DNA of 52,549 nt, taken from assembly GCA_900617105.1 (NCBI GenBank), contig UYFQ01000778.1, forward strand, positions 1 through 52,549. Direction: 5' to 3'. Below are positions 7,511-40,700 of this stretch, piece after piece. The position numbers and the translations under genes were made by a program. How positions within the stretch are numbered: position 1 is the stretch's first letter; every line of letters begins with the position of its first letter. Below the pieces are notes generated by a model. That model worked only from the letters and a program-made list of their open reading frames with translations. It was not told the origin of the DNA and searched no databases. The stretch is from Hydrurus foetidus. Lineage: Eukaryota.

Positions 7511-10135
7511 TCGAGACTGCTGCAGAGCTGGAGGACAGTAGGAGGCGGGACGTCTATGACAATCCACCTGATCCAAGCGAAGCAAAGGATGTTAATATTT
7601 TAAACGCCTTGAAATGGCATAGTTGGTGTTGGAGCAAGTTCGACAGTTACTCAAAAGCTGGAATAGGAAAGAAGACTTTCGGAAGGTCAGCTATCAAATT
7701 GCAACAGATTATTTTCACTACGCAACTAAACACTTTAATATCATAATGTCGCTTTTTAAGGGCATTAGCTGATGTGGCGAATGGTGGCACTAGGATTCCG
7801 AGAATGGGGAGAAAGCCTTTGCTTTCTGATGCTGGCGTATCTGAATTGAATGAGAAATTATTGGAGTGTGCTAAGAAATGTAAAGCTATTAAACAACATC
7901 AATTCGGTTCAGTGCTGCGAACAGCAATTTCGACTGAAAAAGACAATCCTTTTGCTGAAATCACAATTACTCCGAAGACAATAAAGAAATATCAGAAGTT
8001 AGCTGCTGGGCTCGTGGTGCCAGCAGATGTAAAGTCTGACAGTCGACTTAAGGCATTTGAAAATATAAGAAATCAAGTTTCATGCGCTGCAGTTATGAAA
8101 TTCATATTCCAAACTGTTCATTACTCGATGTTCTTTTCATGCGACGACGTTTCAATTCTCGTCAATAAAATGGACGACATTAAGCCGAAAGTGATTCTAC
8201 CAAAGGAGGCCATAGAGTTTCTGCACGCCCATCACATATCTGTTTCAACAGATGGGACTCAAGAGCAACAGAGGATGATAACCTTCAATCTGTGCATTGG
8301 AGGGAGTGGCGAGTCCCCAACAAAGATTATAAAGTTTGCAGATCGCAATTTTGAAGATCTGAAAATAAAACCCAAAATTATCGTGTTAAAGCCAGACTTC
8401 TATGTCATCCTATACCACCCTTCTTTGGATGAAACGGTGCTAAACATATGGATGTTCCAAAACTGCATCATCCCTCAGCTTGAATTACAAAGGTATGCAA
8501 TACATACATACACACACACATACATACATACATACATACATACATACACACACACATACATACATACATACATACATACATACATACATACATACACACA
8601 TGCATGCATACATACATACATACATACCGCACAATACATACATGCCAGATGCGTACGTACATTACATACTTGCATAGCTGCGTACGTACTGTACGTGCAA
8701 TGCGTACGTACGTACGTAGCGCATGCCGTGCAATGCGTGCGTAGCCGTACAGTACATGTGTACGTGCATACGTCAATGCAGTACTTACGCATACACGATA
8801 GTGCATACATACATGCATGCATACGCAACGTACCGCATACATACATGCTGCAGCATTACATACATTACATGCATACGTACATACATACATACATACATGC
8901 ATGCATACATACATACATACATACATGCGGCATACATGCATACATGTGCGGACATGTACATTAATGCATTAATCGTGTTCGTTACAAACAACAATGCTGA
9001 TCAGTCTTCAGATTATTTTCTCTCTAGATCTAGTGCCATAAAAGACGACATCGATGGTATCCCAGAAATTGTACTGTCTCAGATGTCTTTACCAAACACG
9101 AATGAATTCAGCGAAGAGGAAATTGCCGACGAGGAAGATAGGCGTCAAAAGATACGTGACAAGTACAAATATTTGTGCATTGCATTTGATGGAGACCATC
9201 CACAAATTGCTGCCACTGAGCAGACCCTTATCCCGAGAAGTATATCCAAAAACCAGAATCTTGTCTTCCTCAAGTGGGCAGGAGGGTGCTCCATGACGCA
9301 GTCACCTAATGATAATAATCGTGGAATGCACCCGGTATTAAAAAAAGTATATGGAGATAGCAAGTACCGGTATGGCGTTATCGCTGATCCCCCAGGGGAG
9401 AAGTGGGTTCTGCTGAAGGCCTACCTCCGTGAATATTTGGATCCGGGTTCCTTCCGTACGGTGTGGAAAGCGATGTGCTACGCTCCTTCCACTCTACAAA
9501 ACGCATGTAAGTCGTCCAGTATACGCAGTGCCTACCATAATACAGGGATAGTAGATCAGGATAAGCTGCTCGAAATGCAAAGTGGAGTGAAGACTAACCC
9601 TAGCAACCCCAGAACAATACTGGGTGTTAATCCATTTTTCAATCACTTCACGGCCGACGATGGCAACTACATGTTGGGTAAAATTGATGAATTCGCGGAG
9701 ATTATTTCAAGACATGGGTACATTCCGGAGGATGATTTCACGAAGGTGCTAATGGGGAAGACTTACTTGGACAACTGTCCAGCAGTCAAGCCAGGCTCGA
9801 AGCCTCTTAACGACATGGAGACGAACAGACAAAGAAACCTGGTTTTGTCAAATGAGGGGTTCATCGATCAGTGTCGCTCACGGAAAGAGAATCGGAAAAT
9901 GGTTGATGCTGATAAAGAGACAAAGGAAATCAATATGAAGGTGTTCAGGCCAGCATATAAGGCAGAGGCATTGGAGAAGAAAAAGGTCAGGATAGAAGCA
10001 GAAGCAAATGAGGCGAAACGAGTAAAGGAGGAATTAAAACAGATCAAGAATGATCAGAAAATGGAAAATAAAAAAAAGAGGGAAGAAGAAAAAGGTTTGA
10101 AGAAAGTAAACCCAAAAATAGGAGGGTGTGTTTAA
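7486..10135 (+). CDS. pogo/DDE_1-like transposase, exons 7486-7685, 7761-8492, 9028-10135
   Basis: GRKPLLS linker; catalytic-like motifs FFSCDDVS, IAFDGDHPQ and TQSPND (40 residues between the 2nd and 3rd Asp). Two GT-AG introns restore one frame. Basic, charged C-terminus. Confidence 0.8.
8500..8960. repeat. (TACA)n / alternating purine-pyrimidine microsatellite in transposase intron 2
   Basis: Direct reading of the sequence. Confidence 0.95.
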
Positions 10136-14898: not shown

Positions 14899-16651
14899 TT
14901 AATAATCGTCTTCGAACGTCACGCTTTTGCGTGATTTTGCCGGGGTCATAGGTGCAGTAGAAATGGGACTGCTTGTGGGTGAAGAGGAAAGGGGAGGTAG
15001 AATGGAGCCATAGCTGCTGTTAGCGCCTTTTTTATCTCTTCTATTTCCCTTCCTCTTCTCCTTTTCTTTCTTTTTCTCCTTATCTTTCTCCTCGTATTTG
15101 TCTTTCTCCTTTAGGACCTTCCAGCTTGAGCCACCATTTGCGAAGCAGCTCTTTAGAATTCCTGTGGAGACTGGCGTCGTTGGAGTGCTGGAGATCGATT
15201 TCTTCTTGTCCTTTTTCTTCCTCTGAGGTTTATCCATTTTTTTCTCTCTTTTATGCCTGACATTTTTTATCAGGAAACAGTCAGGGAAGTAAATTAGTTT
15301 CAATAAATGTTTGGATCCCATTCATCGATTCTGATTCAGATAGTGGTCGGTTCTGCATGAATCGCAAGACATACTTCGTCAGGATTTTTCTGTCCCTCTG
15401 CATTTCGGCATCTTCGACAGTCTTTGAGAAGCCCACATCCGCGACATCGGTCTCGCCGTTGATGCACTCTATCCATGAGGCTGGAGTCTCCAAGTGTAAG
15501 ATCCTCAATTGCTTTGCGCCCTCTAATTTTCGTGATGAAGGGTTTGAGCGGATGTCATCTTTACGATAAATTTTCTGAAGCGATCTCAAGCGGTCAGTAG
15601 CATTGGTAGCATCAAATGCTTCGAGCCTCGCTTTTCTCAATATCATTAGGAAGCACACTTCCTCTTTCCTTCTTCGCATGCAATCCGTCGAGAAGGTCAT
15701 TCTTTGCGCCCATTGAATACCCTCTCGTATGGCGAAGCTTCCATCCGTGTTCGTAGTATCACTTTCTGTCGAAGTCTCCGTAGAGTTGCCCGTGATCTCT
15801 TCATGTTTGCCGAAGTCGAGCTTGATGCTCCGCGTACCATTTGAGTCAATAGATTTCTCCGTGTGAGAATTATCTACACTCTTCTCCGTATCTCTCTTCA
15901 TGTCGAGAATATTTCCACGATTACAGTGTGTACTAGTGGCGCTGTGCCAGAGTTGCCTAGAGATATCGAGAGCAGATAAATGGCATTGATGCTCATCGAC
16001 CGAGAAGCATCGCCGTTTGTGACTAGCTGCCGAAACTGATACGCCTTTCATGAGAAGCTCTCTTAGTGTCCAAATATTAGACCTCCCAATGGCATATATT
16101 GCCGCCGAGTTACCGTCTTTATCGCAGGCGTCGATGTCAACGTCACGATCTTGAAGCAGATTCTTGACGATTAGTAGTTGTTTTTTGTTTTCGACGGAGT
16201 CACAAGCAACCATAAGGGGGGTTCTTCCAGTGGTATTCGGTCGGTTTAGATTCGCGCCCCAATTCAACAGGAGTCTGACTCCCTTCACTTTGTTCAGTTT
16301 AATCAGCCGATGGAGTGGTGTATCTACCTCTTCCAAGGACTGGCAGTTGGGATCGGCCCGTAACTTGAGTAAATCTCCCACATGATATGACCGGACGTTA
16401 GGACAGTTACAGATGAGAAAAAGAGCCTTCGTCGCGTCTGGACAGTAGGTGAACGCCTGGAAGTTGCGTGTCAGTTGGTGAGAACACTCGTAGTACATCC
16501 AGAACGCATCATTTGATGTCGAAGCCCGGAGATGTTGCCATTTCGCGCGCAGTTGGTCACTGAAGGTGCTTAAATGACCATATTTTCTCTCATGATTTAT
16601 GAATGTCGAGTAGATTTCATGAGCTGTGCCTGAAGTGGCCTTCCCGTCCAT
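14899..16651 (-). CDS. Ankyrin-repeat protein with Lys-rich C-terminus (exons 16651-15375, 15256-14899)
   Basis: TPLHRLI, GANLNRPNTTGRTPLMVAC and DKDGNSAAIYA ankyrin motifs. A GTATGT..CAG intron (15374-15257) joins ORF 15281-16651 to ORF 14899-15321 in frame. Confidence 0.8.
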
Positions 16652-17147
16652 GGTTATCCAGATCCGTTGCGCAGAGTTGTCTCAACTGAGGCTTCCAGGC
16701 AACGAGCTGCGCTGTAACCATCAAGTTTCGAAAATCGTCCGCAGTATGGATATGATCAGAAGACTTATCTATACATCAAACAAAGCAGGTGGGAAATTTC
16801 GCGAGAAGAACCAAGGGGATGGAAGAACCAAGGCTTTGGACTTTGTTTCGAAGAACCCGAAGAACCACAAGCATTTCTTTCATCCTATCGAAACGGTAAA
16901 ATCGGAAATCGCCTCATCGCCTCAGCGGTAATTGTGTCGTGTTTTGTGTTCTGTCTCGCAAATGATATAGGGTAGCCAATAACACAACAATTCAACTCTC
17001 ACCAGTCCACTTTGCTTCAGCGGAGGGGATTGAGAAAAACACGTACCAACAAGCGGGAATCCTCACTCACAATCACGCGTGTCTTCAATTGCAACTGCTC
17101 ATTTCAAACAGCCCCTATATCCCGATTCTCAAACAAAGTCAGCGGGG

Positions 17148-17405: not shown

Positions 17406-17740
17406 ATCTCACGATCTCATCAACGAAAGGGGGTTGCACATCACGCGTGGGATTTTGCAACGGCTTGGACAGCACAGACGTACAAAAGCTGAAGCCAATT
17501 AGGAAGACTAACGCTCGCGCCTTCATTGAAAGTTCCTGGAATATGACGAGTCCAAGAAGCATCACTGGCTGTAACTGGTCTACTCAGCACGGCAGGCGTG
17601 TCTGAGTGAGTATCCTCACAAAACCTGATCCCAAACAAACGGTGTCATATCTCATATATTCTTAATGATGCATCGTTCTATTTGGATGGGTGAGAGAGTT
17701 GCAGTAATAACTTAGAGAACTTCGTCTCTGCCAGTAATTC

Positions 17741-19217: not shown

Positions 19218-19745
19218 GGTGAGCAGAAAATGAGACGTTACCCTACATCAGGTAGAGGAACCCCTAATGTCAACTCTGTATCAAAAAGAAGTATCAAATA
19301 TGATGTATTGCGATTGACGATTGACAAAACGCATATTACTGTATTCTGTATTGGGGGATAAACCGTATGGTGGTTCCACCTCTACATACCAAAAAAAAAG
19401 TAAGAAAAGTCAAATAATATGACGCCAGAATTGCAGGGAAATACGTGTCATGTGTGTCGTACGTTACTTATTGAGTTTATCCCCCACTTGGTACGTCACA
19501 ACGTACCCCCTCACAACGTACCCCCCACAATTATTCTGTCGAATACAGAATAGTTACACAGAATACAGAACTGGACTGTCTTTTGGCTTTTGGCTGTCGG
19601 CTGTTTTCGTATTTTCTAAAAAAAACCTGTTGAAGGAAATCCTATGTTGACGTTTGGTTTGGTAATGGGGGTTTCAGTGTGATACTGTCGATCATTACAC
19701 GCCGCTGCATTATAGACTTACCAAGGGCAACTCACAAATTCAAAC

Positions 19746-20357
19746 ATGTTCAGCACCGTCTTCGCACTCGCAGCAATTCTGTCGTCAGCAGCAGCCTTTG
19801 TGCCCACTGGGCGCAAGGTGCAATCACCGTCTCTGCGTATGGCTTTCGAGAAAGAGATCGGTGCCCAAGCTCCTCTTGGCTTTTGGGATCCGATTGGACT
19901 CCTAAAAGACGCCGACCAAGCACGCTTCGATCGTCTTCGCTACGTCGAAACCAAGCATGGTCGTATCGCGATGCTTGCTGTTCTCGGTCATATCGTCACC
20001 AGTAAGGGCGACCGTTTTCCTGGGGAGATCGCTTACGGAGTTCCATTTGCATCTGTAAAATCAGGCCTCGCAGCTTTTGATAACATTCCACTTGCCGGAA
20101 TTGCGCAGCTCTTTTTCTTCATTGGGCTTCTAGAGCTCGGATTCGACAGTGTACAGAGCGAGATTGAAGTTGCTTGCAAGAAGGAAATGACCAACAGAGG
20201 CTGGGATGAGGCTACGCAGAAGAAGAAGGCATCTATTGAGCTTAATAACGGTCGTGCAGCGCAAATGGGCATCTTAGGACTCATGGTCCACGAGAAACTG
20301 AACAATGATCCTTACATCCTCAACTCCATACTCGGTTTTCCAGTTCAATTCAACTAA
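19746..20357 (+). CDS. Lhcf: Fucoxanthin-chlorophyll a/c light-harvesting protein (Lhcf type), plastid-targeted
   Basis: Signal peptide ending AAA-FVP; GFWDPIGL, RLRYVETKHGRIAMLA and ELNNGRAAQMG motifs; intronless. Confidence 0.96.
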   Translation: MFSTVFALAAILSSAAAFVPTGRKVQSPSLRMAFEKEIGAQAPLGFWDPIGLLKDADQARFDRLRYVETKHGRIAMLAVLGHIVTSKGDRFPGEIAYGVPFASVKSGLAAFDNIPLAGIAQLFFFIGLLELGFDSVQSEIEVACKKEMTNRGWDEATQKKKASIELNNGRAAQMGILGLMVHEKLNNDPYILNSILGFPVQFN

Positions 20358-20582
20358 TTACTTTTATGGAAGTCACTTCCGCAACACCCTTTAAGGCAGT
20401 GAATGCCACCAAACACTAACATATAATGTCGCTGCTAGACGTTCAACCAACTTCCCCAACTTTTATTTCCGAGTATATTCTTCGACTCCCATGTAATATG
20501 TCTAAAAAGAGAACTAGTCGATGAAAATGTTTGTTATGATGTTATTTCAAGAAAAGGCATCTTTTTCTGTGCAGTTTCGGAT

Positions 20583-21603
20583 TTACTTCGTAGCCAGTTT
20601 CATGATCTGTGCCTCGAGGTCTTTCTCAGATTTGACTGGCAGAACTGTAAAAAGAAGGGCGGCAAGTTAAGAATACAGTAGGCGATGTAGTAATAACTGT
20701 AAGTTGAGGTGGATGCACTCACCATTTCCCTCTTTGTCAACAAGGAATTTTCCTGCAAAGTTCCATGCAACGTCACTCAAGACTCCCTGCTCTTTCAAAA
20801 ATTTGTAAGTGGGTCTCGTGTTGGGTCCGTTTACGTCTGCTTTGGTGAAGACATTGGCGCCCTCAACGCCCTTTATGTCGTTATGAATTGTAAAACTGCT
20901 TAGGGACATCATCTACGTAAAACATAAAAATGTATCATAATGTAAAATGTTTCATAATGTGGCACCTTCAGGGCGCAGAATCCGACGACGTCGGCATCTG
21001 TGCCTGGCTGCAGAAAAAAAGAAAGGGAGGGTTGGAGTTCTCAGGCGAAATGAAAGGAGCAATTGCGAGTTCGTGGTATATTCTAGAACGATTTCGTTTT
21101 CCTGAAAAGGATCTAAAGAAGTAGCGAATTGATCAGTCCAGCATCGCCGATGTCGAAAAGCAGGCTGAGGATAGTTACCTCTTGTCCACCAAACTGAAGA
21201 CGTTTGTTAAAAAGTAGATAATCGAAATGAGTGGGATGGAGTATGTGAGCAAAAGAGAGTGTATCTCATACAGAAGAGTTGTGAAGCATACTTGATTGCA
21301 TGGAAAAATAGCGACTTCGACGCCTTCACTCTTCATTTTGGCAATCCTTGCGAGTAGTGCGTAACCGGACGCTGTATAACCGCATTTTGTAGCGACGTTA
21401 ACTCCATATACCACCTTTCCCTTGAATTTAGAGAAAGAAACTGATTTTCCAGTTGCATCCTTCTCATTAATATCATAGAATGAACTCATTGCCAAAGTTG
21501 ATGATGATCTTGCAGTTGAAACCGTCGCCTTTCCAAGAAAGGCCCTCACACTTGCTGCTATCATCAACGCGAATATGGAGATAAATATTGCTCTTGCAGA
21601 CAT
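20583..21603 (-). CDS. GPX: Plastid-targeted Cys-type glutathione peroxidase, 5 exons including a 15-nt micro-exon
   Basis: Signal peptide + [15 protein letters not shown] (Cys = TGC); FPCNQ|FGGQE|PGT split over exons; [10 protein letters not shown]; stop at 20585-20583. Confidence 0.92.
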
Positions 21604-23702
21604 TTTGGCTAGTTTGAATTAGATGGAAGTTACCCAATGGTGAGAGTGAGAAGCGATGAATTGCGAGTGAGAAGTAAGAAGTCATGGAATGTAACAGTGA
21701 CGCCTGCTGTGACGCTGCGGAACATGCGTGTGGAAAGTGGTAAGTGTGGAACGAGAACCTGCTTTATTTTCGTTTCTAGGGTAATTTTTTCATGCGTGCA
21801 ACGGGCAACATTCCACAGGTCTCCTCTATCTTCAAAACCCTCGATCAATCTGTGGACATCTTTTCAATTTTGACATCAAATAGAACTGTATTCCTGTCGT
21901 CGAGAAGTGCTGGTTAGTGGAAGAGCTTGGACGCCATTCAGATCTGAGAATAATGTCTCCGGTTATTCTCATATTTTTTGCAAGTCACATTGTTCGCCTC
22001 GGTGCCGTAGGAAGTAACAAGGTAACCGCTGTAAATCATATCTAAACTAGATATAGTGCAAGACTGACATTTGACGTGATCTCATGAACGTCATAGTCTA
22101 TCGACGAAGCGCTGCCAAACAGTTGGACAATTGTTGGCTCACCAAAAATCGCGTCTCAAAAAGATCAGAATTCACAGAGTCGAGCATACAACTTACGGTC
22201 ACGAGAAGCCACATCACAACGTGATAGTGCGATGAATCCGATAAATTCGTTGGGGCCTCATAAAAAATCAAAAAGTTATCGGCCTTTGAAATTACCTGAG
22301 GTGTTGCCTGCGGAGGATGTAGACAAGTCGGCAGAGTTCATAAGGATGTACGCCTAGATCCTTCATCCTCTAGGCCGCATCACTGGATGCGACACCTCCC
22401 ACGCCTCATTGGATACTAGAAATCAAGAGCCTAGAGAACTGTGTATTGCATGTTATTCTTGTTTGTATTATTACTCACTAGTTGTAAGCGATGCATTCAG
22501 CTGAAAAAGGTATTTTGAATTATCTTTCCGTCGAAGTATCGTGATATTAGGTTCGAAGTTGCTTTTTCATGACTATCTCAATGCGTGATGTGGATGCCGC
22601 AGCGAAGTCTGCTATTTGACAAGTGTTGTAACGCACCCTATTAGGAATCCCGTATCGGTCTGCACTTTTATTCTTGCTATTTATTCATCGAAAAATGTCA
22701 TCGTGCCATTGTCATTGAATTTCTTTCTTATTTTTTTTGGAATCTCTGGGTTGGAATACTTTTGTACGTGAGGAATGATCGTATAAAGCAATGCGAAGGA
22801 AATCTGTATGGGCGTCAGAGATTTCTGCAAGCGCCCCAATTGTTGCTCTGCTGTCCTAGGAGCGTGAGGTTGCATGCAAAAAGTATTGAGAAAAAGCTGG
22901 AAGAGCACAAACCTGTCGGTCGTTGTCAAGTATGAAGCGAGTCCATCGCGGCTTCAGGAAGTACAATAGGTGACGAAGTAGCGATAGTGTAGCCTTTCCC
23001 AAGGATGGTCGAGTTAGAGGTTTCGATAGGCGAACAGGGAAGCTGTTCACATCAATTAGGTGTAAAAGTATTTATGCTTCAATCACTCAATTGGCAAGAA
23101 ATAGCTCAAATCGACCAAAACTTCTCATGTCGGACAGGGTATTCATTCGAAGCCTACCCTTGATTAACGACACTGCCGAAGTTAGTATTTATCATGTAAC
23201 TAATTTCCTCAACTACGCTTCATCAAAATGATATCACACACCCAAATTTAATCAACTTAAAATAGTTTTTGCTCCTGTTGGAAATGAGTTCACTCATGTC
23301 GACTAGTCCCAGTGAGGCTGAAGCTGCAGATTCAGTTGAAAATTTCACGTAAAAATACAAAAGACGCTTGCCTGATTAATGCTCATGTAGACTTGGAGAA
23401 ACTGACAAATGAAGTGGTCTACCCTAAACAGCCACGCCCCGTAGTGTGCGTGTGAGATAATTTGGTACCAGATTTCTAAAGATACTAAAAATCATAGAAC
23501 TTCTGGCACTGTTGGGAAGATTCTGGCACACCATGAAAAAAATGAAAAATTCGCAGGAACATGAAAATTGAAGTGATCGATATTGCAGCGAAACAGTTCA
23601 GTTTGATCGACGTGATGTGGTTCTCATGCTGCTCGTGCTACCCATAATTGTTCTCGACAAGTCTATCAAGTCCCCAGAAAAGTCTTTCAGAAAGTCTGGC
23701 AG

Positions 23703-24987
23703 ATGACAGCAGTTCCATTTTTCGTTGTGGCAGCAATTCTGATTATCAATCTCTCATCCTCGGCAGAAATCGAGTTTCTCGATAATATTGGCATCACACC
23801 GGTAAGAAGACAGACTATGCAAGACCCAAATTTTGACCGCTCTTACGATCGTTGATTGCCTACAACAGGATAATCCGTTTTACAGCAATCCTAGACAAGG
23901 TGAGCAAAGTTCACAACTTCAAATAAGACGACTCAAACGCTCTAGCATGTCCCCTCCTGGGCCTGGCACTCAACGGCAGCCAAAACCAGCTCGATCAGTA
24001 GGATCTAATGCCAGAAAGCTCCAGATTAATGGAATGCCGCCGACGCCGCCACCTCCTCCTCCTCCTCCTCCTGGTGCCTTTAGTATGCCAGGACCAAGTG
24101 GACATGCTCGATCACTTACGGAAAGAGAGAAGCTAGCAAGTGGGACGTCTCTTGAGAACGGTGTTTACAGCATGCCTGGGTCTTCGAGATCAGCAGGATC
24201 TAATGCCAGGAAGCTCCAGATTAATGGAATGCCGCCGACACCGCCACCTCCTCCTCCTGGTGCCTTTAGTATGCCAGGACCAAGTGGACATGCTCGATCA
24301 CTTACGTCTCTTGAGAACGGTGTTTACAGCATGCCTGGGTCTTCGAGATCAGCAGGATCTAATGCCAGAAAGCTCCAGATTTATGGAATGCCGCCGACGC
24401 CGCCACCTCCTCCTCCTCCTCCTGGTGCCTTTAGTATGCCAGGACCAAGTGGACATGCTCGATCACTTACGGAAAGAGAGAAGCTAGCAAGTGGGACGTC
24501 TCTTGAGAACGGTGTTTACAGCATGCCTGGGTCTTCGAGATCAGCAGGATCTAATGCCAGGAAGCTCCAAATTAATGGAATGCCGCCGACACCGCCACCT
24601 CCTCCTCCTCCTCCTGGTGCCTTTAGTATGCCAGGACCAAGTGGACATGCTCGATCACTTACGGAAAGAGAGAAGCTAGCAAGTGGGACGTCTCTTGAGA
24701 ACGGTGTTTACAGCATGCCTGGGTCTTCGAGATCAGCAGGATCTAATGCCAGAAAGCTCCAAATTAATGGAATGCCGCCGACACCGCCATCTCCTCCTCC
24801 TGGTGCCTTTAGTATGCCAGGAAAAGATGGGACCCTGCCTTCAGTTGATAGAAAGCTCCAAGTAACAAGTAGGCCACCGAATTCAGTCAGTTATAGCATG
24901 CCTGGATCAGTACGATCAGCTGTCAGGGGGTTTCAGGGCCCTGCTGACCTAATCAATTCCAACAAGCCGGTGGTGAATATCGCATGA
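23703..24987 (+). CDS. Secreted proline-rich tandem-repeat protein with recurring RXL motifs (exons 23703-23801, 23869-24987)
   Basis: Exon 1 encodes a signal peptide (MTAVPFFVVAAILIINLSSSA). A phase-0 GTAAGA..CAG intron joins it to ORF 23833-24987. Confidence 0.85.
24001..24820 (+). repeat. Coding tandem repeat, units starting at 24001, 24196, 24355, 24547 and 24739 (195/159/192/192 bp + partial)
   Basis: Near-identical units differing by CCT triplet number and one 27-bp in-frame deletion. Confidence 0.95.
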
Positions 24988-26275
24988 ATCGTGTAAGCTC
25001 CGCTATGATGGGCTGCTAGCAATTCAAATTTCGCCACTGAAATGACGGTCGCTGATACAGGAAATGTTTCCTGCATCCGTGTCCTTTGAGGACGTGATAT
25101 CAGAAGAAGAAGATTCACAGCAAAGAATGACTCATGAGTTCATCCCTTCAATTTTTTAACTTTTGCCAAATGTATGGGGGTTCCAATAATTAAAAGAATC
25201 ATTTTTGAAAATTGATATCTCGCTGACCATGAACTATGGCCAGTGAACCATGCTATGGATTCTCAATACGATAGAGTCCATTCGACGCTCCGATAGCTTA
25301 TTCCGGTAAGAACTAATAGAATACAGATACACAATGTATTTATAGCATCGCTTCCCCTCCCATCACTCTGCCAATGCAAATTTTTGGGGATCTCAGAGAC
25401 ACATTTCATGTAGTTGCTGGTCAGTTAAGCCATTCATTGGGTGTTCAACAGTAGATAACGCCAGGTGATTTTTTAGCGGACTGTGCCGCCGTTTGAACTG
25501 AACCAGTAGCGGTGCCCATTGTGGAAAAAAAATACCACCAGTGAGAGGATCACGATTCGGTGTCGCAGTGCCCGGAGCTGACTACATCGAAGTATTCCAT
25601 CATCTGCATCTTGATTTCGATTCGACAGCCCAGAACCAAGTGCTGCCGGTATCTCCAAACAATCCGCAACGTAAATCTCGACCGCAAGTTAGCAGCGACT
25701 TCGATTGCCTTTGCGAAGTAGCACTTGTGATGAAAGGAAAAATGAAGCACTTTCAACTCTTAAAATTTCCAGCGAGGTATTAGCTCGCGCTACAATTTCA
25801 GGCAACTAAATTAACTAGGGGCAAACTTTTGAGACAAAAATGTGGATGTACTCACCTCAAATTAGAATAATTAATTGGTTCATCTCCAGCTGTGATTCAC
25901 ACCGATACTGCACTATGCAAATGAAACTGATGACAGTTTGCGGCCATGCCGATGCGTATCTTCTGCCTTGAAGCTTTGAATTGGTGTCATCGAGTGTCCT
26001 TCAAGTGAGAAACCATAAACTTGAACTCTGTTGAGGTTGTCTCCGATTTATGGTGAAAGAGACGGTCGCGGGGTAGGGCTCAGCGCTCAGCATACTAGAG
26101 TGGTTGTGATTTTGACAATAATTCTCAGATCTTGGATCAAAAGTTGGTTTTCAACAATTATCCAAATAAAATTATCCAATTATTCACGGACGCCACTGAG
26201 AAATAAATTATTTCGCTGAAGAAGTTATTGAAATTGTAATGACAGCTATTTAATTTTATCTTTTAGAATATCGCC

Positions 26276-27193
26276 ATGTCAGACTCAAATTCTGATGTTG
26301 TGGTTGTGAAGGGGAAGGGTTACATGAAGTGGTCAGTAGAGATGGAAAAATTGTTGGTGAAATCTGTGAAGGTCAATAGAGCGCATATAAAGACGAAGAA
26401 GTTACAATTTCAAGAGAAGTATGACAAGGTCATCGTCGATCTATGGTCAAGGAAACTGTTCAATGAGCAGTGTGAGAAGCAAACCTGGACAACAGTCCAG
26501 AAAATTTTCCGTGCCTTGTGCGAAAAATTCCGCTCTTCCCATGGATACGGCGACTCCGGTATGCGCGTGAACCTCAGCGCTTTGCCGGATATGGACGAGC
26601 TCTCCGAAGTCAACGAGCTCCTACATGACATGTGTAAAGAAATCGCCAGCCAGATTGAAGAGACGGATCATGAGAAGAAAGTTAAATCCGAGAAGAAGAA
26701 AGTGGTCATGGACATTACAGATGTAATCCAAAGTGGGGGAGGGAAGCCTGGATTGGCGAAACTGGCAGGGGATATGAAAAAAAGTGGTGAAGAATACCTG
26801 TCTGGTAAGACGGAAAACTTCGTGAAAGCTTTATCCGAAAGCAGCGATAGCTCCAAGGGGTTACCAGTCTCGAGATCAGTCTCGTCCGAAAGTAGCGGCG
26901 TTCCGGCAAGCGCTCTGAAAGGTAACATCTTTACCGCAGTCACTGGCGAATCATCAGTAAGAAAGCGAAAAATTAGCAGAAGTGAAATCGAGGGCGAGGA
27001 TCTTATGCGAACATTCACTGACCAGTTCCTGAGAGAAGATCAGGCGGAAGCGACGAGGATGAGCAACTTGGAGGAAACAATCCGCATTTCAGGAGAGGCA
27101 ACAATAGCGGCAATCGCTGCTGGCAACGAGGAGGTCGCAAAATCTAACAGAGCACTGTTTACTATGCTGTCAACTCTACTAGTAAATAGATAG
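26276..27193 (+). CDS. Myb/SANT-like accessory protein of transposon A
   Basis: KWSVEMEKLLV N-terminal helix motif and coiled-coil-like C-terminus; lies inside the TIRs, convergent with the transposase. Confidence 0.75.
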   Translation: MSDSNSDVVVVKGKGYMKWSVEMEKLLVKSVKVNRAHIKTKKLQFQEKYDKVIVDLWSRKLFNEQCEKQTWTTVQKIFRALCEKFRSSHGYGDSGMRVNLSALPDMDELSEVNELLHDMCKEIASQIEETDHEKKVKSEKKKVVMDITDVIQSGGGKPGLAKLAGDMKKSGEEYLSGKTENFVKALSESSDSSKGLPVSRSVSSESSGVPASALKGNIFTAVTGESSVRKRKISRSEIEGEDLMRTFTDQFLREDQAEATRMSNLEETIRISGEATIAAIAAGNEEVAKSNRALFTMLSTLLVNR

Positions 27194-27390
27194 CTGCATG
27201 AGCAAATGTTGTTCATTATAATCAAAGTACGTTAACTTTTGCATGAAAAGTGTTTCATTTTGTGCGTTACGCTTCGAGGTCAATAAAAAAGTTCGTTACT
27301 TCGAACATGAAGAAATTTAATTCTAAAATGCACGGAAGTCATCTACTCTACTCTACAGCTCTCTCATCGATTGAAGATTGAGGGCATAAT

Positions 27391-28695
27391 CTAATCGAAA
27401 GCCATCTCGTTCCTTGGTCCTTCTGCAGTATAAGCCTCAAAACTGGGAGGGGGGCAACGAAACCACTGAGAGGTTTCGTTGTGATTCATGCAGTTCCAAG
27501 CGTTGTTCAAAGTGAAACATAGGTCGATAATGTTATCAGCTCTTTCAAATCCTGTAAGCAATTGGAATGTGTGCTTTTTACCTATGATCCTCCAGTATTG
27601 TGTGAGGTCACGATACATCCATTCAATACTCTCCCTGCATCCGTTCATTGCTTTGTTGAGCTCAGCATATTCTTCGCCGTCCTTTTTACAGGAGATCCTA
27701 TCTTGCTGAGGATAAGCCGAGTCTCCATAACAGGAAAAATATTCCGCTGGTGGACGCTCTGAGGTAAGCTCTACTAAGCGATCATTGATGTCTGACTCGA
27801 CCAACAGGTGCAAGTCATGTCTTCTGCATGAATAACCTTTGCTGACATGAAACGCCATCCCATTAGCCATACCGATCGACTGTTTTTTGATTCCATGGGA
27901 TTTTTTCCACCCGTTGTAGAAGGCCTCCTGAACAAGATAAGGATACCTAGCGGCGAGGACACCTGGTGCCATTGGCCCCCCCCCTGTCCTGCATGACGGT
28001 ATGATTGTGCAGTCTATGAAAAGTGCTACGAGAAATTCTTCATCGATATCTTCATCGACATCGTATCCATAATGTGATAACATTTTTGCCTTGATAGCAT
28101 CCCTAGATTCTTCCAGATAATTTCCCCAAAATTCGAAATGATCCCGTAGCAAGTAACCCCAATTTTCATTCATCCATCTTGCAAAGTAGATGACACCTCT
28201 ACAAATAGTTGAATGGTGAATTTTGTATTTCTCTTGCAGGTCAAGGTATCGGGATCCAAGCGCACAACGCTCGAGTGCGATGAGGAGCAGCTCTTCACCT
28301 GCAAAGCGGTAACCGAAGTCTGGAATGACGAAATATGCTGGGATGCGGAATCCGGTGAGCAAGCGATGCAGTTGATTTCGGCTTTTGAAACGGTAATCTG
28401 CTGCGATTTTACCCTCTTCTATTAGATTTGAATCGATTGACAATCTCTCTCCTACATAACCGATGTAAATTCTGCGTGGAATAGTAGCTACAGCCATGAA
28501 TTCTCCCGAAATTCTTCTCATGAATCGTATCGCTATCGCTGCCCTATTCTCGTCTATTTCTCCATTCAGAACATCGTGCATTCTCAGGAATAGAGCCATG
28601 AGAACGCGCTTTCGATGGCGGTCAATGCCAGTCAATGCAGCACTGTGGCGACAATTGATGTCGAGGTTCTTTGAACTCGTCTTGTAGACAACCAT
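27391..28695 (-). CDS. Harbinger-type DDE transposase (DDE_Tnp_4-like) of transposon A
   Basis: FIDCT, FYNGWKKSHGIKKQ, RRHD, YGDSAYP and RESIEW motifs. Start is ATG 28695 or 28734. Confidence 0.9.
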   Translation of the reverse strand: MVVYKTSSKNLDINCRHSAALTGIDRHRKRVLMALFLRMHDVLNGEIDENRAAIAIRFMRRISGEFMAVATIPRRIYIGYVGERLSIDSNLIEEGKIAADYRFKSRNQLHRLLTGFRIPAYFVIPDFGYRFAGEELLLIALERCALGSRYLDLQEKYKIHHSTICRGVIYFARWMNENWGYLLRDHFEFWGNYLEESRDAIKAKMLSHYGYDVDEDIDEEFLVALFIDCTIIPSCRTGGGPMAPGVLAARYPYLVQEAFYNGWKKSHGIKKQSIGMANGMAFHVSKGYSCRRHDLHLLVESDINDRLVELTSERPPAEYFSCYGDSAYPQQDRISCKKDGEEYAELNKAMNGCRESIEWMYRDLTQYWRIIGKKHTFQLLTGFERADNIIDLCFTLNNAWNCMNHNETSQWFRCPPPSFEAYTAEGPRNEMAFD

Positions 28696-29140
28696 GCTGT
28701 AAATTGTACAACTGATTGACCAAGACAGACTCATCTGACAAGTATTACGAAGTTTATTTGAAATTTTAAAAACAGGACTCCATAAGGACAGCAATAAAAC
28801 TTAACTGCCATTTGAATTACGTTTGCTACATCAAATCAAGATAAGTGAAATTACAACCATGTTTTCGTATGCGTAAAATTAACGAAAATTTAATTCAATA
28901 ATTTCTTGCGAAAAAAGATCACAACCACTCTACTACGGGCGAACCCCAGGAACTCCGTACCTTACACCGCCATTATATGTCGACATCCAAACTGGCGAAA
29001 AAGCGGCGAAGAAAAAGCGTCTTTTCATGCCACTTTTTGCTGACGAGATTATACGAACAATGTCGACCTTTCAAATAGTGACAGATAGAAGTAGATGTTC
29101 GAACTCGAACGAAGAGACTTCATACGATAACTAAAACAAT

Positions 29141-30603
29141 ATGCTGTCTCTCGAATCAAACGTTTCTCCAAAACGGAAGCTGCTATGGGAGTCTGACGAG
29201 GATACGGAGGAAATCTCTTTCGAATTCAACAGCGGGGAGCTGAAAAGGAAGAGATTGCTGGTTGGTTTGGCCTTTTTTTCAATACTGTCTTTGGACGGCG
29301 ATGATGTTCTTGGTGTCCGTGGTCAAGTTAGAACGGGCAACAAGCACCGGGACAGGAGTCGCATCATTGCTTGGTCCAAGGAAATAGATGACGTCATGTT
29401 TAGGAGACAATTTCGATTACATCGTATTGATTTCCATGATGTGCTACTGAAGATAAATGTGGATTTGGATAAATCGGTTTTGCACGCCGTCAACAGTTCT
29501 GGTTCAGCGGTGTCTCCATACTTGATGTTAATGATAACGCTTCGTATCCTTGCCGGTGCATCGTATCTTGACATGATTCATTATCATGTTCATGTTGATT
29601 CAATATCGAGGATAGTCTGGCAAACTGTAGAATCAATTCATAGGAGAATAGATAACATCAAAGTGGCGAGGAATGATAGTGAATGCAAAGCTTTGGCTAC
29701 CGAATGGTCGGAAATACAGCTGAGGCGATGGGGAACATACGTAGCTGTGGGAACTATTTATGCTGGTGACGGCCTTGTTCTTGAAATCCAGCAACCGTCC
29801 TTGAAGGAGCTTAGAGGTCGATCTATTTCCATTTTTAGAAACAGGAAAGGTTTTTGGGGTCTGATAGCTCAGGGATTCTGCGATGCGTATACAAGATTCA
29901 GTGTCCTTGATGTGAAATGGCCAGGAGGTACCAACGACATAGTGGCGTATAGAATGTCAGATCTTTGTCATCTAGCGATGAATGGACACTTCCCAGAATG
30001 GGCCTCATTTGTTCTTGACGAAGCATACTCCTCTCTCGGTGGAATGCATTTGACACCGTATTCAAGTGGCCAACTGAAGTAAGTAACGAATAAATCCATG
30101 TGTAAACCGTTGAATTGTTTTCTGAATTACTTCCATATTATTGCAGGTTCATGAAATCCCGGAATCCTACGCAGTACATGAAACTGATAGCTTTTAACAA
30201 TATTTTGTCCTCGCAAAGGATTACAATCGAACGCGCATTCGGCATTCTGGTTCGCCGATGGGGCATACTGTGGCGTCCAATCGCCTTTAAAATGAAAAAA
30301 GTATCAAAGATAGTAAGAGTGTGTGCTATGTTGCATAACATTTGTGTAGATAGATGGAAAATAAACAATCCAATCAAATATGGTGATCGTGGGCAGCGAT
30401 GGCCTGATGATGTTCCCGACAGCATCACTAGTGATTCCATATTTCCAGAAGAGAAAGAAATCATCAAGAGATTGTATAATAATTATATAGTAGAACGAAA
30501 AAGAAATGTCAATCAAGGATTGCGATCCTGTATAACTGAGGATATTTACGATGCTGGATTACGAGCAAATCGCGATACTGAGCATTTACCTATTCCACGC
30601 TAA
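29141..30603 (+). CDS. HARBI1-like DDE transposase of transposon B (exons 29141-30078, 30147-30603)
   Basis: TLRILAGASYLD, AGDGL, RNRKGF, WPGGTND, LDEAY and RITIERAFGILVRRWGIL motifs; a GTAAGT..CAG intron restores the frame. Confidence 0.92.
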
Positions 30604-30656
30604 TATCAAAGGCGCAAAATTCTATTTAGATTTTAATTGACTATTCATAGAATTGA

Positions 30657-32171
30657 TTACATCAATCTTTTTAATTTCTGCTTCAACAGTGCAATATCTT
30701 CGGCTGTGTAAATATCATCACGTTGTGGATGCGTCAGTTGACTGGTCAGTCTTTCAACTTCGAGAGACGTCGTCTTGGCTTTCTCTGTCTCTGATGTTGC
30801 GTAATTTTTTGCGATCATGGAGTCATTCAAAGAAGCGCTTGAGTTGCCATCTGTGCTCACTGAATCAGGTGACATGATTGATCGAAAGAGACCGATTTGC
30901 TTCTCCGAAAATATGTTACGTTGTTTTTCTTCTCTTTCTCTCGCCGATTTTTTTCTTCTTGAATACTCTGTCTCACTGCTCTGTGGTTCTTCTTTGATCG
31001 CATCGTCACCATTTTCATCCTCCATCAAAACTGATTCCATAAAGTCTAGATCCTTGTCTCTCAGCACCAAATAGTAGAAGAATAGGTTGGCATCTTTGGT
31101 GCGACTTTCTCCGGTACGCTCGTAGGCAGCCTTAATCAAGTCCGTATGGGAGGAGTGGAATCCACTCTTCGCCAGTTTTGCCAGGAGGCCGTTGAAGGAA
31201 CTCCTCATTTTCGTATTTAAGGCTTTCAGTTGTTCGCCTCTCGTCAGAGACGGTGTATCACAAAAAATCCCATTGCTTGGATTTATGTCACCAACAATAT
31301 AACCCTCATAATTTTCAATTGCTAACTCCGCATAAGTATTGCTGTATAAAGCTCTTTTCTGCATAATCAGGTCTGCAAGCTCACTCCACTTTGCTATAGA
31401 CAATGCTGGGGCTCCAATATCCAACACCTCTATTAGCAAGTGCTAATAAAGATAAAGACTTTTTATGGTGACGTGATGAGGTGTGTTACAGAATATGCTT
31501 TCTACTCGGTTCATACCTGGTCTAGCCTTAGCTTCTATCGGTTTCGCTAGATGTTGCCAATATTGAATCAGGTCTGGGTCAGCAATAGCACATGCCAGAA
31601 GTGCTACCCTATCGCAAACGCGTCCATTGCTCAAATGACTCACGGATGAAAACGGTACGAGTTCTACCACACGCTTCTTCTGTTTCTTATCCACATTGAA
31701 GCCTTCAAGTATGCTTTTCGTAACTGTACTCCATTGAGTGCTACCAAATTTCAGTTCAGTTATGGTTTTCTCAATTTTATCTTTGAAACTTTTCAGTTTA
31801 GTGCTCTTAGATTCTTTCCCCCACTTGCAAGAACTGTCCTCTTGATTTATCAGTTTGAGAGACCCAAGAGTCTTTACGATTCTGTTCATCGTCAAAGAAA
31901 GACCGAATTTCTGTCCGGAATTTGACAGCATCTTCAGGGACTCAATGATATCATCACCACTCTTTGCCAGATGGAGCACCTTAGAGAATTTGGCGCATTT
32001 CTCCTCATCAGTCTCAACTACGATTGTATCGTCTATTTCAAGGATATCGGCATCCATACAAATTTCTCCAAATGCTTCCGAGTCCAGCGACTGATTTTCA
32101 TTCGATGCCGACCTGATCTCATTCTCTGAATCAGAGCTGTACGCATCTTCTACAGCTTTCCTCTTGCTCAT
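30657..32171 (-). CDS. Accessory (probable degenerate Myb/SANT-type) protein of transposon B (exons 32171-31517, 31429-30657)
   Basis: A GTATGA..TAG intron with GCTAAT branch point joins ORFs 31443-32198 and 30657-31439. NLS-like MSKRK. Convergent with the transposase. Confidence 0.7.
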
Positions 32172-33190
32172 TCTCCAGAAGAAGGAGTTGAATCGCAAAT
32201 TCTAATTGTGAAGGGCTGTCGCTGTAGCTACTTTTATGTTCTGACGCTTTTGGATGTTCAGCCAAGATGGCGGGATGTGGAGCTGGAAAGTGGCGAGTAA
32301 AAAAGTGGATTGCCGCTTTTTTCGCCGGTTTTTCTCCGCTTTTGCCGTCGACATCGTTCGTATACTTTCGATGTTAGAAAAATGTAAAACGTTGAAAATG
32401 GATTTTGAGTGGAATCACCACCCAGATATTTCTCGTCATTTTCAGGTATTATTTATTATTTTTTGGTACAGTCTACGGTAGAACGCTGTATACAACACAC
32501 CAAAGCTTTCATCTCGAGTACTTTCGATATCGACCAGATCACATCACCAAAGCATCTCCTAACTAACAAACACAATAGCCATTCCATATCACTTCTGGCC
32601 GCCATATAATTTTCCTGCAACGAGTTTACGATACATAGTCAATAAGACATATGTGACAGGCTCCGAGGTTACTTTAGAGACTGATACCAACGATCACATA
32701 ATCAAAAATTGTTTCAACGGGATCACATTAATCTGATACTATATTTTTGCTGTAGTTGTAAAGGATTTTTGATTTTAAATAGTCTTGTTATCAAAAATTT
32801 GTCCATAAACACTCCGGTAGAATTTTCGATCATCAGATTATCAAATATCTTTTGTGACTTTTTTTGAAAACTCTTAAAGTTCATTGAGGTTATTGATTCT
32901 CATGTGATACACTACTCTATAAAATTTTGATGTGTAAATAATCTTGGCGAAAAAGTTACAACGTTTTTACTTTATCTCATACATGAAGCGGGTACGGGGA
33001 TCCTGGGGTTCGCCTACGGTAACGGTAACGGTGAATGTGATATCGAAATTCGAGATGCGACTCAAATTGACTTCATGTGACAGCAACTCAAACTCAAACT
33101 CAACTGTAAGACGATTTATCTTCAGGAGCGTCAAGATTACAGATCGATCACTTCCAAGCAATGCCGGTTTCCGGTAACACTGTTGTTGTG

Positions 33191-37715: not shown

Positions 37716-40700
37716 TTAGTTCTTGAAAGAGGGGAGGTTGTTGAAGGCAGCGGTGGGCTCCTCCTGCTCCGCCTCCTTCTCAAGCTCATTGATGCTCGCA
37801 GCCCTCGATCTCGCATCCGGCACATTGATGCTCAGACGCACAAGACCAAGCCTCTGCCGCTCAATGATCTAACAAGTGGAAGAGTGGAAAGGGATGGAAT
37901 CGTGAAATAGGCAAGGCGAAAAATAACAAGACTAATGGATCGGATAGATATCGAGATTGATAAAACTAGTGTTTGTTTGATATGGTTTTGCAAAGTGAGT
38001 AAATACACCACATAGACAAGGAAAGAAGTGATATTAAGTGCGCTCTTATACTTCGGATATTGAATTGAAACACAATCTGATGGCGTTTGTGCGATTCTGA
38101 AGGCAATGAGTTCCTACGGTGAAAAAGAATGATGCACAGCACGTACGTACCTCTTCTGGAGATAAGTTCACCAGTGCGGCAGAGCTCCTGCGATGCACGT
38201 ACTTGTTCTTGTATTTGGGGGATCGGTTGATAACCTGTCGAGATTCATACACCATGTGAGATAATGTGAAATGAGGTGAGATGATGCACGATAAGATGAG
38301 AGAACATGTAGTGAGCTGTAATGTGATCAAATGAGGTGAGATAGGATGGAATGAAGTGAGGTGAGATGATGCACGATAAGATGAGACAGGGTAAAATGGA
38401 GTTAGACAATATAAGATGAGATGATATTAGATAAGAATTAGACAAAGATGGGAAGACCATTGTTCAATCCAATTTTTCATATCAAATGACATAATAAATG
38501 ACTGATTGTCAAGGGCAGATGAGAGGGTAAGAGAAAGAAAAAGAGAACGAGTGAGATAGTTAGAACCCATTAATAAATGAGGGACGAACAGAAAAACTAC
38601 TGAGTACCATAAATAATGATCAGGAAGGCGCAGTGTAAATGATACACTGTAGGATAGATAGATAGATAGATAGATAGTCAGATAGATAGTCAGATAGATA
38701 GTCAGATAGATAGTCAGATAGATAGATAGATAGATAGATAGAGCGATCGATAGATAGATAGTCAGATAGATAGTCAGATAGATAGATAGATAGATAGATA
38801 GATAAATAGATAGTCAGATAGATAGTCAGTTAGATAGATAGATAGTCAGATAGATAGATAGATAGATAGTCAGTTAGATAGAGCGATCGATAAATAGATA
38901 GTCAGATAGATAGTCAGATAGATAGATAGGTAGATAGATAGATAGTCAGATAGATAGTCAGATAGATATTCAGATAGAAGATAGATAGATAGATAGATAG
39001 TCAGATAGATAGATAGATAGATACCTGTATCTTATCGAAATCCACTAGAATGCATCCAGCCATGGCTTGTGTGCCTTGTCGGTGGTCCTTGGAAGTCGAG
39101 AATACCGTAAAGACTCTACAGCGGAAAAGAAAAAGATGCATGAGATCGGTGAAGGATAGATCGAAGTTCTTTTCGAATGGAATCTAATCATTTTGGGCGA
39201 GTTCTCTTCTTCTCAAAAGAATGGATTGTTTGAAAGTGTGCTTTCAGAGCGCATTGCTGTATCTTTCTTGGGCAGTCTTATAAGTCAGAAATCGAGACAG
39301 CACACCAACCCACTTGATAATATAGCACAGTGCACCACATCACACCAAATCATTTCACACTGCACCACACCAATGATGCGCCACGTCATGATTTAGCACA
39401 TCACACCACATCATCAACCAACACACTTCATTACACCACACCACACTCAGCCCGTCCAATCTCACCTAGCCCCCTTTGAGAGAGACACACCGTGTGCGTG
39501 TGCTTCGTGCGCACGTATGATGTACGACAGCTGGTTGTTGTCCAGAAAGTTGTCAATTGCTGCGGAGCCGAAACTAACATAGAGGAAATAGAATGAGTTC
39601 AACGATATTTCTTATAAATTCCCCGCTTGCAGTGAGTTATTTTGGCTGATTTATCAACCATTTAGAAGAGATACTGTGTGTACACCATATGAGTTCTCAT
39701 TTGACTCCAAAGTCGGGCAATATCTAAGTCTTCACCGTCTTTGGAGTCAAATGAGAACCCATATGTTAAGATGTTACACAGATTAGATTCATCACAAACC
39801 AGATACACGTACGTACCACACGGCGCCACCCCCTCTGGGACTCTGTCCGAACCCCAAGTCGTTCAGGGAATGTTCCATCTCCTCTGACGCTGGGTCGCTC
39901 CATATGCAGTCACTCGCAACCTAAAGTCAGAGTGGCGGAAAGGATGAATAGGATGAATAGAAAGCAAGGTAAGTACATCTGAGATTGTGTTGTATCATAG
40001 GACACTATTTTGTGTTGTGTTGTGTTGTGTTGTGCTTGGTTATTTGTGGAGTGTAGAGTAGGGGTGGAGTGCAGGAGGGGTAAGTGAAGGAACTGCTTGA
40101 CAGAAGACACATCTCCTATACCACCCCATGACACATCCTATCCTAAAATATCACTATCTAACTCTCCATCTGACCATCTGAGCATTTCTCACCTGTACAG
40201 AGAATTCCGTTTCGTGTTCGTATGCCGGAGTTACGGCCGCAACGCACGGTACAGCCAAGATGGCCTGCACCTCCGTTTCGTACTCCATCACTGGGCGGGG
40301 GATGCCTACAGATGGAGAGAGAGAGAAAAAAAAGGGCAAAGAGAGAAGGGTGGGGATGCGGAGGGAGGCAGGGAGGTTCGTGAGCAGATAAACGATGTGA
40401 TTTCAATTGTTGTTTTAGTTGAGTGCCACTGGTTACATGGTTACAGATTTGACGATGACGAAATGCAATTTGCGAAATAAGCAGTAGTATAGCTTGATGA
40501 TAACATACATCATTTCATTCCGTCTCAATAGCATTACTTATTGCTAATCGCATGAAATGTTGTACCTCCGTGTATGCAGAAGATTTCATGGTCTATGACG
40601 GAAGAGAGTGGCATACGGTCAAACGTTTGATTGCACTCCTGAAAAGATAATAACAAATAGAGACAATAACATTATATGAAGTTAGGTTGAAATTCAATGA

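What the first reader, a model, noticed from the sequence alone, without database searches (positions are those of the whole stretch)
23703..24987. Secreted polyprotein built of RXL-delimited repeated peptides, a silaffin/silacidin-like precursor architecture
Seen: a signal-peptide exon missed by the ORF track, then RRL, five ARKL and one DRKL, four ARSL and three REKL sites. These delimit repeated peptides QINGMPPT(P)nGAFSMPGPSGHA and ASGTSLENGVYSMPGSSRSAGSNA, both sharing an aromatic-SMPG core that is also kept in the diverged last unit (YSMPG). Established: RXL is the pro-protein processing motif of diatom cell-wall proteins (silaffins, silacidins, frustulins). Inference: a precursor releasing many copies of Pro-rich, probably hydroxylated or glycosylated peptides for an extracellular structure (silica scale or cyst, lorica, stalk, mucilage) or for signalling. 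It lacks the KxxK and poly-acidic motifs of known silica peptides, so it may be a new peptide class.
Basis: partly seen in the sequence, partly recalled or inferred. Interest (0 to 1): 0.75.

Follow-up and report, generated by a model that had tools for sequence, protein, structure and literature searches.

The report
Golden-alga RXL repeat-peptide precursor, antisense-covered
A freshwater alga, likely a golden alga, carries an orphan reading frame laid out like the diatom shell-peptide precursors, predicted to be secreted and cut into about ten short peptides that share one five-residue core; in the one stranded RNA sample tested it was silent and only a spliced RNA from the opposite strand covered it, so its role (likely a stage-specific cyst-wall or matrix component) is untested.

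Summary
The motif counts are exact: 11 R-x-L sites (shuffle mean 1.4; 0 of 10,000 reach 11), 3 REKL and 10 [FY]SMPG cores in one open frame. Cores are bracketed by a double spacer, RS[LAV]…[R/E]KL; motif codons change mostly silently (7 of 9). The signal-peptide exon is a good prediction (chance about 0.001) but unconfirmed. In a strand-calibrated poly(A) library (one sample, two runs, about 6% read) none of 319 reads on 23300-25400 was sense. All came from a spliced minus-strand RNA with no long ORF that starts beside a Harbinger transposon end. The neighbouring light-harvesting gene points to a chrysophyte. Only two near-identical, shorter versions of the protein were found; no distant homologue. 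It fails the silaffin (no KxxK), silacidin (not acidic) and KEX2 (no dibasic delimiters) tests but shares the RXL architecture. Best reading: a stage-specific secreted precursor cut by an S1P-like protease, most likely for cyst wall or matrix; signalling peptides and a decaying, silenced gene are close rivals. The scan noted RXL repeat precursors before, on diatom DNA (e1-9898660, e1-9558823), with other peptides.

The parts
23703..23801 (+). Predicted exon 1 (33 codons): signal peptide of about 21 residues (small-x-Ala before the cut, Glu not Phe after it, so not plastid-type) and start of the pro-segment
   Evidence: Sequence. Signal-like start plus GT[AG]AG donor occurs 0.35 times per 105 kb in shuffles. 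No sense RNA support.
23802..23868 (+). Predicted 67-nt phase-0 intron, GTAAG…CAG
   Evidence: 43-nt AG-free zone and TTGAC/TTGAT branch-like words, comparable to RNA-shown introns of this organism (78, 95, 132 nt). Splicing not observed.
23869..24987 (+). Exon 2: rest of the pro-segment to RRL (23926-23934), a degenerate first unit, the repeat array and the C-terminal unit; no transmembrane or GPI-like tail
24010..24747 (+). Four near-identical units (195, 159, 192, 192 nt). Each: RKL, Gln-led poly-Pro peptide with FSMPG, RSL…REKL spacer (shortened in unit 2), Ser-rich peptide with YSMPG, RSA…RKL spacer
   Evidence: the variant letters between copies are also seen in RNA reads
24748..24987 (+). 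Two diverged terminal units that keep FSMPG/YSMPG; their sites are partly degenerate (PSV for RSV, RGF for RKL)
23370..26070 (-). Spliced, oligo-dT-selected antisense RNA (ends approximate): deepest over about 25250-26070, with read-through across the whole gene; intron 25724-25855; longest ATG ORF 48 aa; no Rfam match
   Evidence: (strand calibrated on LHC + and GPX - genes; joint seen in 16 and 10 reads)
26093..28935 (.). PIF/Harbinger-type element (inverted arms 26093-26113 and 28915-28935; DDE_Tnp_4 ORF on -, second ORF on +) whose left end abuts the 5' end of the antisense RNA

Best explanation
This is an intact reading frame with RXL-bordered repeats that likely encodes a secreted precursor, predicted to be cut by a site-1-type subtilisin into about ten short peptides with an [FY]SMPG core, and likely used only at a special life stage, most likely as organic matrix for the silica cyst wall or another outer covering. 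Steps: (1) shown: open frame, motif layout, codon-level conservation of the motifs, silence of the sense strand and antisense cover in one culture sample. (2) Inferred: exon 1 is spliced on and routes the protein into the ER; with no anchor it stays soluble. (3) Inferred: cuts fall after RRL/RKL/REKL and at RS[LAV], and the short spacer is trimmed away (silaffin-1 peptides lose their RRxL ends), giving a 26-29-residue Gln-led poly-Pro peptide and a 17-residue Ser-rich peptide. (4) Inferred: Pro hydroxylation/glycosylation and Ser phosphorylation would supply the chemistry that the bare, nearly neutral peptides lack. (5) Inferred: the antisense RNA is fired outward from the adjacent Harbinger end and may help keep the gene off.
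For: 11 R-x-L versus 1.45 expected; 9 of 10 cores are followed within 2-5 residues by RS[LA], the tenth by the homologous PSV. Across old duplicates 7 of 9 changes in motif codons are synonymous against 0.26 expected (p about 0.002, biased by choosing conserved motifs), while the four codons before the core give 5 of 15. All unit lengths are multiples of three and the two database versions keep the frame with 2 and 1 full units. Signal-like start plus donor is rare by chance; the acceptor is the first AG after a 43-nt AG-free zone. Signal peptide + about 30 residues + RRL is the diatom 'RXL domain' (PMC5525289). Diatom silica proteomes hold disordered, species-specific proteins enriched in SMSM and Pro/Thr/Ser motifs, ten with no KxxK (10.1101/2021.09.18.460806). 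Chrysophyte placement; that chrysophytes build silica only in cysts unless scaled is my own background knowledge, and would explain silence in a growing culture.
Against: No sense read and no splice joint in runs X10/X11, so transcription is not shown. No KxxK, no acidic run; predicted peptides carry about -1 to +2 charge. RxLx/RxxL is a general S1P motif, not a silica mark. No distant homologue in 1.84 billion representatives, which include chrysophyte transcriptome proteins, so no family conservation supports function. Among recent copies only 3 of 5 substitutions are silent. The ATG has C at -3 where two expressed neighbours have A, and a pyrimidine-richer AG at 23885 would give a 35-residue dead product. 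Triplet-sized indels are expected from CCT slippage alone.
Confidence: 0.35

Rival explanations
1. Same precursor and processing, but the peptides are signals (mating or encystment pheromone, or hormone) read by a receptor through the [FY]SMPG core; copy number sets the dose.
For: A short fixed core in freely varying flanks with sites on both sides is the layout of ligand precursors. RxLx/RxxL releases RALF and SCOOP peptides in plants (PMC13082318); fungal repeat precursors include alpha-pheromones (PMC6339444 abstract); a diatom sex pheromone is a peptide (PMC12843257 passages and reference titles). N-terminal Gln could cyclise to pyroglutamate (inference). Silent in culture.
Against: No receptor or modifying enzyme nearby; in ochrophytes RXL has been reported from biosilica proteins (PMC5647440 passage); poly-Pro length varies from 3 to 9.
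Confidence: 0.27
2. A once-functional precursor gene that is now silenced or decaying because a Harbinger element inserted next to it drives antisense transcription across it; no peptides are made.
For: Zero sense reads; antisense 5' end abuts the element's left inverted repeat; transposon-rich surroundings; singleton non-synonymous changes and loss of one spacer.
Against: Frame intact in the window and in both database versions; a lake metatranscriptome holds the repeat unit at depth 33 without the stretch that is deepest in the antisense RNA (contigs give no strand, and holes prove nothing).
Confidence: 0.2
3. The protein is secreted whole, or cut only once after the pro-segment, and acts as an extensin-like disordered glycoprotein; the internal RXL sites were copied along with the repeat.
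For: Internal sites arise by tandem duplication; two are degenerate (PSV, RGF) and one spacer is deleted. RXL processing is called unproven in PMC5647440.
Against: RS and KL codons are kept through silent changes in old duplicates whose flanks have diverged.
Confidence: 0.12
4. Cytosolic poly-proline protein starting at the Met at 23948 (formin/WASP-like ligand), or the antisense RNA is the real gene and the frame is incidental.
For: Gene callers start the database proteins at that Met; the only RNA seen is antisense.
Against: No FH2, WH2 or other domain; upstream signal exon unlikely by chance; silent changes follow the + frame; antisense ORFs are at most 48 aa.
Confidence: 0.06

Closest known systems
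Silaffin-1 precursor Sil1p (Cylindrotheca fusiformis) and silacidin precursor (Thalassiosira pseudonana); PMC4557024, passages read
   Same: Signal peptide, pro-segment, tandem repeats bordered by RXL/RRxL, predicted release of many short peptides, no folded domain.
   Different: No KxxK or Lys in the predicted peptides, no Asp/Glu-rich run; poly-Pro and an aromatic-SMPG core instead; two alternating peptides with double-site spacers; chrysophyte-like host; no evidence of silica association.
Diatom 'RXL domain' proteins Sin1 and SAPs (PMC5525289, PMC5647440; passages read)
   Same: Signal peptide followed by about 30 residues ending in RRL.
   Different: Those are single-pass membrane proteins with one or two RXL; this has eleven and no membrane anchor.
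Plant S1P/subtilase-processed peptide precursors RALF23 and PROSCOOP (PMC13082318; passages read)
   Same: RxLx/RxxL sites in a secreted precursor; Ser-rich short core.
   Different: Plant examples cited carry one C-terminal peptide; no sequence similarity; no receptor known here.
Fungal KEX2-processed repeat proteins, including alpha-pheromone precursors (PMC6339444; abstract read)
   Same: Secreted precursor of near-identical repeats with variable copy number.
   Different: Delimiters are RXL, not dibasic KR/RR.
Sorghum Siliplant1 (10.1101/518332; passages read)
   Same: Signal peptide, Pro-rich disordered repeats, RXL at repeat ends.
   Different: Slp1 binds silica through Lys; the peptides here have none.

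Membership tests
Silaffin-1-type precursor | N-terminal signal peptide | tested here: inconclusive
   Hydropathy and -3/-1 rule met on the predicted exon, rare by chance; no SignalP available and splicing unobserved.
Silaffin-1-type precursor | RXL after the pro-segment and at repeat borders | tested here: met
   RRL at 23926 and ten further R-x-L.
Silaffin-1-type precursor | Lys-rich repeats with KxxK | tested here: not met
   0 KxxK; nearly all Lys lie in the cut sites.
Silaffin-1-type precursor | Polyamine/phosphate modification and silica precipitation | not testable with these tools
   Needs biochemistry.
Silacidin | Asp/Glu- and Ser-rich acidic repeats | tested here: not met
   5 Asp and 13 Glu in 405 residues, pI 10.9; repeats near neutral.
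KEX2-processed repeat proteins | Dibasic KR/RR between repeats | tested here: not met
   One RR and one KR, both at the end of the pro-segment.
S1P-processed peptide precursors (RALF/SCOOP-like) | RxLx/RxxL sites | tested here: met
   RKLQ, RSLT, RRLK and REKL all fit (motif).
S1P-processed peptide precursors (RALF/SCOOP-like) | Cognate subtilase and receptor; cleavage shown | not testable with these tools
   No whole genome is held for this window.
Formin / WASP poly-Pro proteins | FH2 or WH2/WH1 domain | tested here: not met
   No Pfam family above cut-off; no long ORF downstream before the transposon.

The most novel reading that the evidence does not exclude
Golden algae make a new class of small secreted peptides with an aromatic-Ser-Met-Pro-Gly core from multi-copy RXL precursors: either a mating/encystment pheromone or a lysine-free template for the silica cyst. 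This gene is switched off in growing cells by an antisense RNA co-opted from a transposon end. That would extend diatom-type RXL processing to chrysophytes and give a first molecular handle on their cyst or sex programme.
Probability: 0.15. Interest if true: 0.8.

Novelty: new variant of a known kind. Interest (0 to 1): 0.45.

Why it matters
The protease that cuts diatom RXL sites is described as unknown (PMC5525289), and my paper searches (listings only) showed no RXL repeat precursor from a chrysophyte. If real, this gene shows that the processing route is shared beyond diatoms and supplies defined peptides and a marker transcript to test what builds or triggers chrysophyte cysts. Its weight is limited for now: one orphan locus, no sense expression seen, no function.

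Tried and rejected
Homologue searches: word-index search of 5.8 billion proteins gave 1 hit among 7,990 scored candidates (P0001) and 1 among 3 for a poly-Pro-free region in shorter proteins (P0002). HMMER over 1.84 billion representatives gave 6 hits: P0002 and five unrelated repeat or poly-Pro proteins, read and rejected. ESM Atlas gave no usable hit twice. JGI metagenome scan: 0 of 72 pattern stretches confirmed. Viral contigs 0 of 15. PDB sequences: 2 hits at E 0.13 and 0.63, ignored. Rfam none. Pfam: two sub-threshold matches, ignored. A possible second intron from the GTGAG at 23900 (in-frame acceptors 23989, 23998, 24001) could not be tested; it would remove RRL but keep the array. One codon comparison (unit heads) was out of register and was dropped. 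No fold or complex prediction was run, since the protein is low-complexity and has no alignment. The journal version of the diatom silica proteome paper is not held and the preprint's supplements are closed, so I could not check whether FSM/YSM motifs are among its 113 enriched motifs.

Full report
Observation. The region holds one long open frame on + (23806-24987). An ATG at 23703 opens 33 codons with a hydrophobic core, followed by G|GTAAG at 23802 and an in-frame AG at 23868; the joined model is 405 residues. Eleven R-x-L compare with 1.45 in residue shuffles (0 of 10,000 reach 11), though tandem copying inflates this. Over the array only the + frame has no stop; the other five have 4-20.

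Anatomy. The array is four near-identical units (195, 159, 192, 192 nt) and two diverged ones. Read by codon, the true repeat is smaller: core [FY]SMPG, 2-5 residues, RS[LAV], a short spacer, [R/E]KL. Nine of 10 cores are followed by RS[LA]; the tenth has the homologous PSV; the pro-region carries a degenerate core and RSV. The three old versions of the core and their RS and KL codons differ at 9 positions, 7 silent, against 0.26 expected (p about 0.002; the motifs were chosen for being conserved, so this is biased); the four codons before the core give 5 silent of 15; the recent copies give 3 silent of 5. There is no KxxK, no Cys, no anchor, and the pieces are near neutral.

Signal exon. A scan for signal-like starts with a GT[AG]AG donor found 3 in the window (this gene, the glutathione peroxidase gene and one at 17526) against 0.35 in shuffles per 105 kb of strand, about 0.001 for a 300-nt stretch upstream of the frame (my arithmetic). 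The acceptor is the first AG after 43 AG-free bases with branch-like words, like RNA-shown introns of the same organism. Against: C at -3 of the ATG, and a second AG at 23885 that would truncate the product. The residue after the predicted cut is Glu, whereas the two plastid-type neighbours have Ala-Phe, so the default secretory route is inferred.

RNA, the main new result. Runs X10 and X11 (one sample, oligo-dT, same species label as DNA holder X8; about 6% of each run read) are stranded: the + strand light-harvesting gene shows about 1,200-fold depth with first mates on minus only, and the minus-strand peroxidase gene the reverse, with CT..AC joints. Over 23300-25400, 171 and 148 reads were laid and the sense column is zero in all 30 bins of both runs. 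The reads belong to a minus-strand RNA from about 26070 to about 23370, deepest at 25250-26070, spliced at 25724-25855 (16 and 10 reads), with no ATG ORF over 48 residues and no Rfam match. No joint was seen at 23801/23869. Its 5' end abuts the left inverted repeat of a Harbinger-type element (arms 26093-26113 and 28915-28935); that the element drives it is inference. One lake metatranscriptome (X1) holds a 216-nt contig of the repeat unit at depth 33 and a 151-nt piece at 25058-25208, but nothing over 25217-25400; contigs give no strand, so this is only a hint of a different transcript in nature.

Organism and relatives. No genome is held. The neighbouring light-harvesting protein has its nearest named full-length hit in Ochromonas (80%), with Mallomonas and Ochromonadaceae among the others, so a chrysophyte is likely; note e1-10703048 on the same genome says the same. 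The only relatives of the precursor are P0001 (two full units) and P0002 (one), otherwise nearly identical; they may be strain alleles or collapsed assemblies. The letters that differ between the window's copies also vary among the RNA reads, which supports a real mixed array; DNA run X8 shows a more uniform unit at about 1.5-1.7 times flank depth, a hint of fewer copies there (depth is not a copy number). All wider searches were blank. Short low-complexity motifs are poorly seen by these tools, so absence of a family is not shown.

Mechanism. Most likely a secreted precursor cut by a site-1-type subtilisin. RXL borders the repeats of silaffin-1, silacidin and others, and mature silaffin peptides lack the RRIL/RRNL ends (PMC4557024, passages). 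Signal peptide plus 30 residues ending in RRL defines the diatom RXL domain and the protease is unknown (PMC5525289, passages); processing is called unproven in PMC5647440 (passages). RxLx/RxxL is the S1P consensus and releases plant RALF and SCOOP peptides (PMC13082318, passages); the link between diatom RXL and S1P is my inference, and a search for it gave 0 papers. I put the secreted, multiply cut precursor at about 0.6. For its role I commit to a stage-specific matrix, most likely the silica cyst wall (0.35), because diatom silica proteomes include disordered, species-specific proteins with SMSM and Pro/Thr/Ser motifs, ten without KxxK (10.1101/2021.09.18.460806, passages and section 12; supplements closed), and because silence in culture fits a cyst gene (background knowledge). 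Signalling peptides (0.27) and a transposon-silenced gene (0.2) are close.

Comparison and novelty. It works like Sil1p/silacidin precursors in layout but is not a member: no KxxK, no acidic repeats. It is not a KEX2 repeat protein (PMC6339444, abstract) nor a formin. Other papers seen: PMC5501833 (passages, section 8, outline), PMC10328945 (passages: RXL in Parmales silicanins), PMC9650480 (passages), 10.1101/518332 (passages), PMC12843257 (passages), 10.1101/2022.07.28.501549 (passages), and 10.64898/2026.10.27.762293 (term search: no occurrence of silic, secret, peptide, silaffin or antisense). Searches listed no paper on such a precursor in chrysophytes; the library lacks most subscription papers. 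The scan's own notes hold two diatom RXL repeat precursors with different peptides and nothing similar by sequence.

Verdict. Real architecture, orphan sequence, expression of the sense gene not shown, function untested: new variant of a known kind, interest 0.45.

Noticed in passing
window 26093-33014: Two adjacent or nested PIF/Harbinger-type elements: the second (inverted arms 28938-28961 and 32991-33014; DDE_Tnp_4 ORFs at 29135-30082 and 30106-30603 on +) starts right at the first's right-hand arm. The first's transposase ORF had no reads in X10/X11.
   Followed up: partly
window 20500-21630 (-): Glutathione peroxidase gene with a plastid-type bipartite leader, introns shown by RNA, and a small internal exon near 21181-21205.
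   Followed up: partly
window 19746-20357 (+): Intron-less fucoxanthin-chlorophyll protein gene, about 1,200-fold depth; an identical protein lies on a 33,313-nt ENA contig, the same length as the contig of P0001, suggesting the same locus.
   Followed up: partly
window 23472: RNA reads lack 6 letters here (10 of 10 in X11, 2 of 4 in X10) that the window and DNA runs X8/X9 have: probably an allele or strain difference.
   Followed up: no
window 17526 (-): Another signal-peptide-like start with a GTGAG donor, upstream of an ankyrin-repeat ORF (15281-16681); whether they belong to one gene is untested.
   Followed up: no
window 19349-19510: Short element with very high DNA depth in run X9 (thousands-fold), between KTI12 and the light-harvesting gene: a high-copy repeat.
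   Followed up: no
window 42999-47731 (-) and 49502-52546 (-): Copia-like (zinc knuckle, integrase, RT/RNase H-like ORFs) and gypsy-like (RT, integrase, chromodomain-like ORF on +) retrotransposon pieces, judged from the translations.
   Followed up: no
window 8500-8945 and 38653-39023: Long ATAC/TACA and GATA microsatellites; the first lies inside or across long ORFs of unknown type.
   Followed up: no
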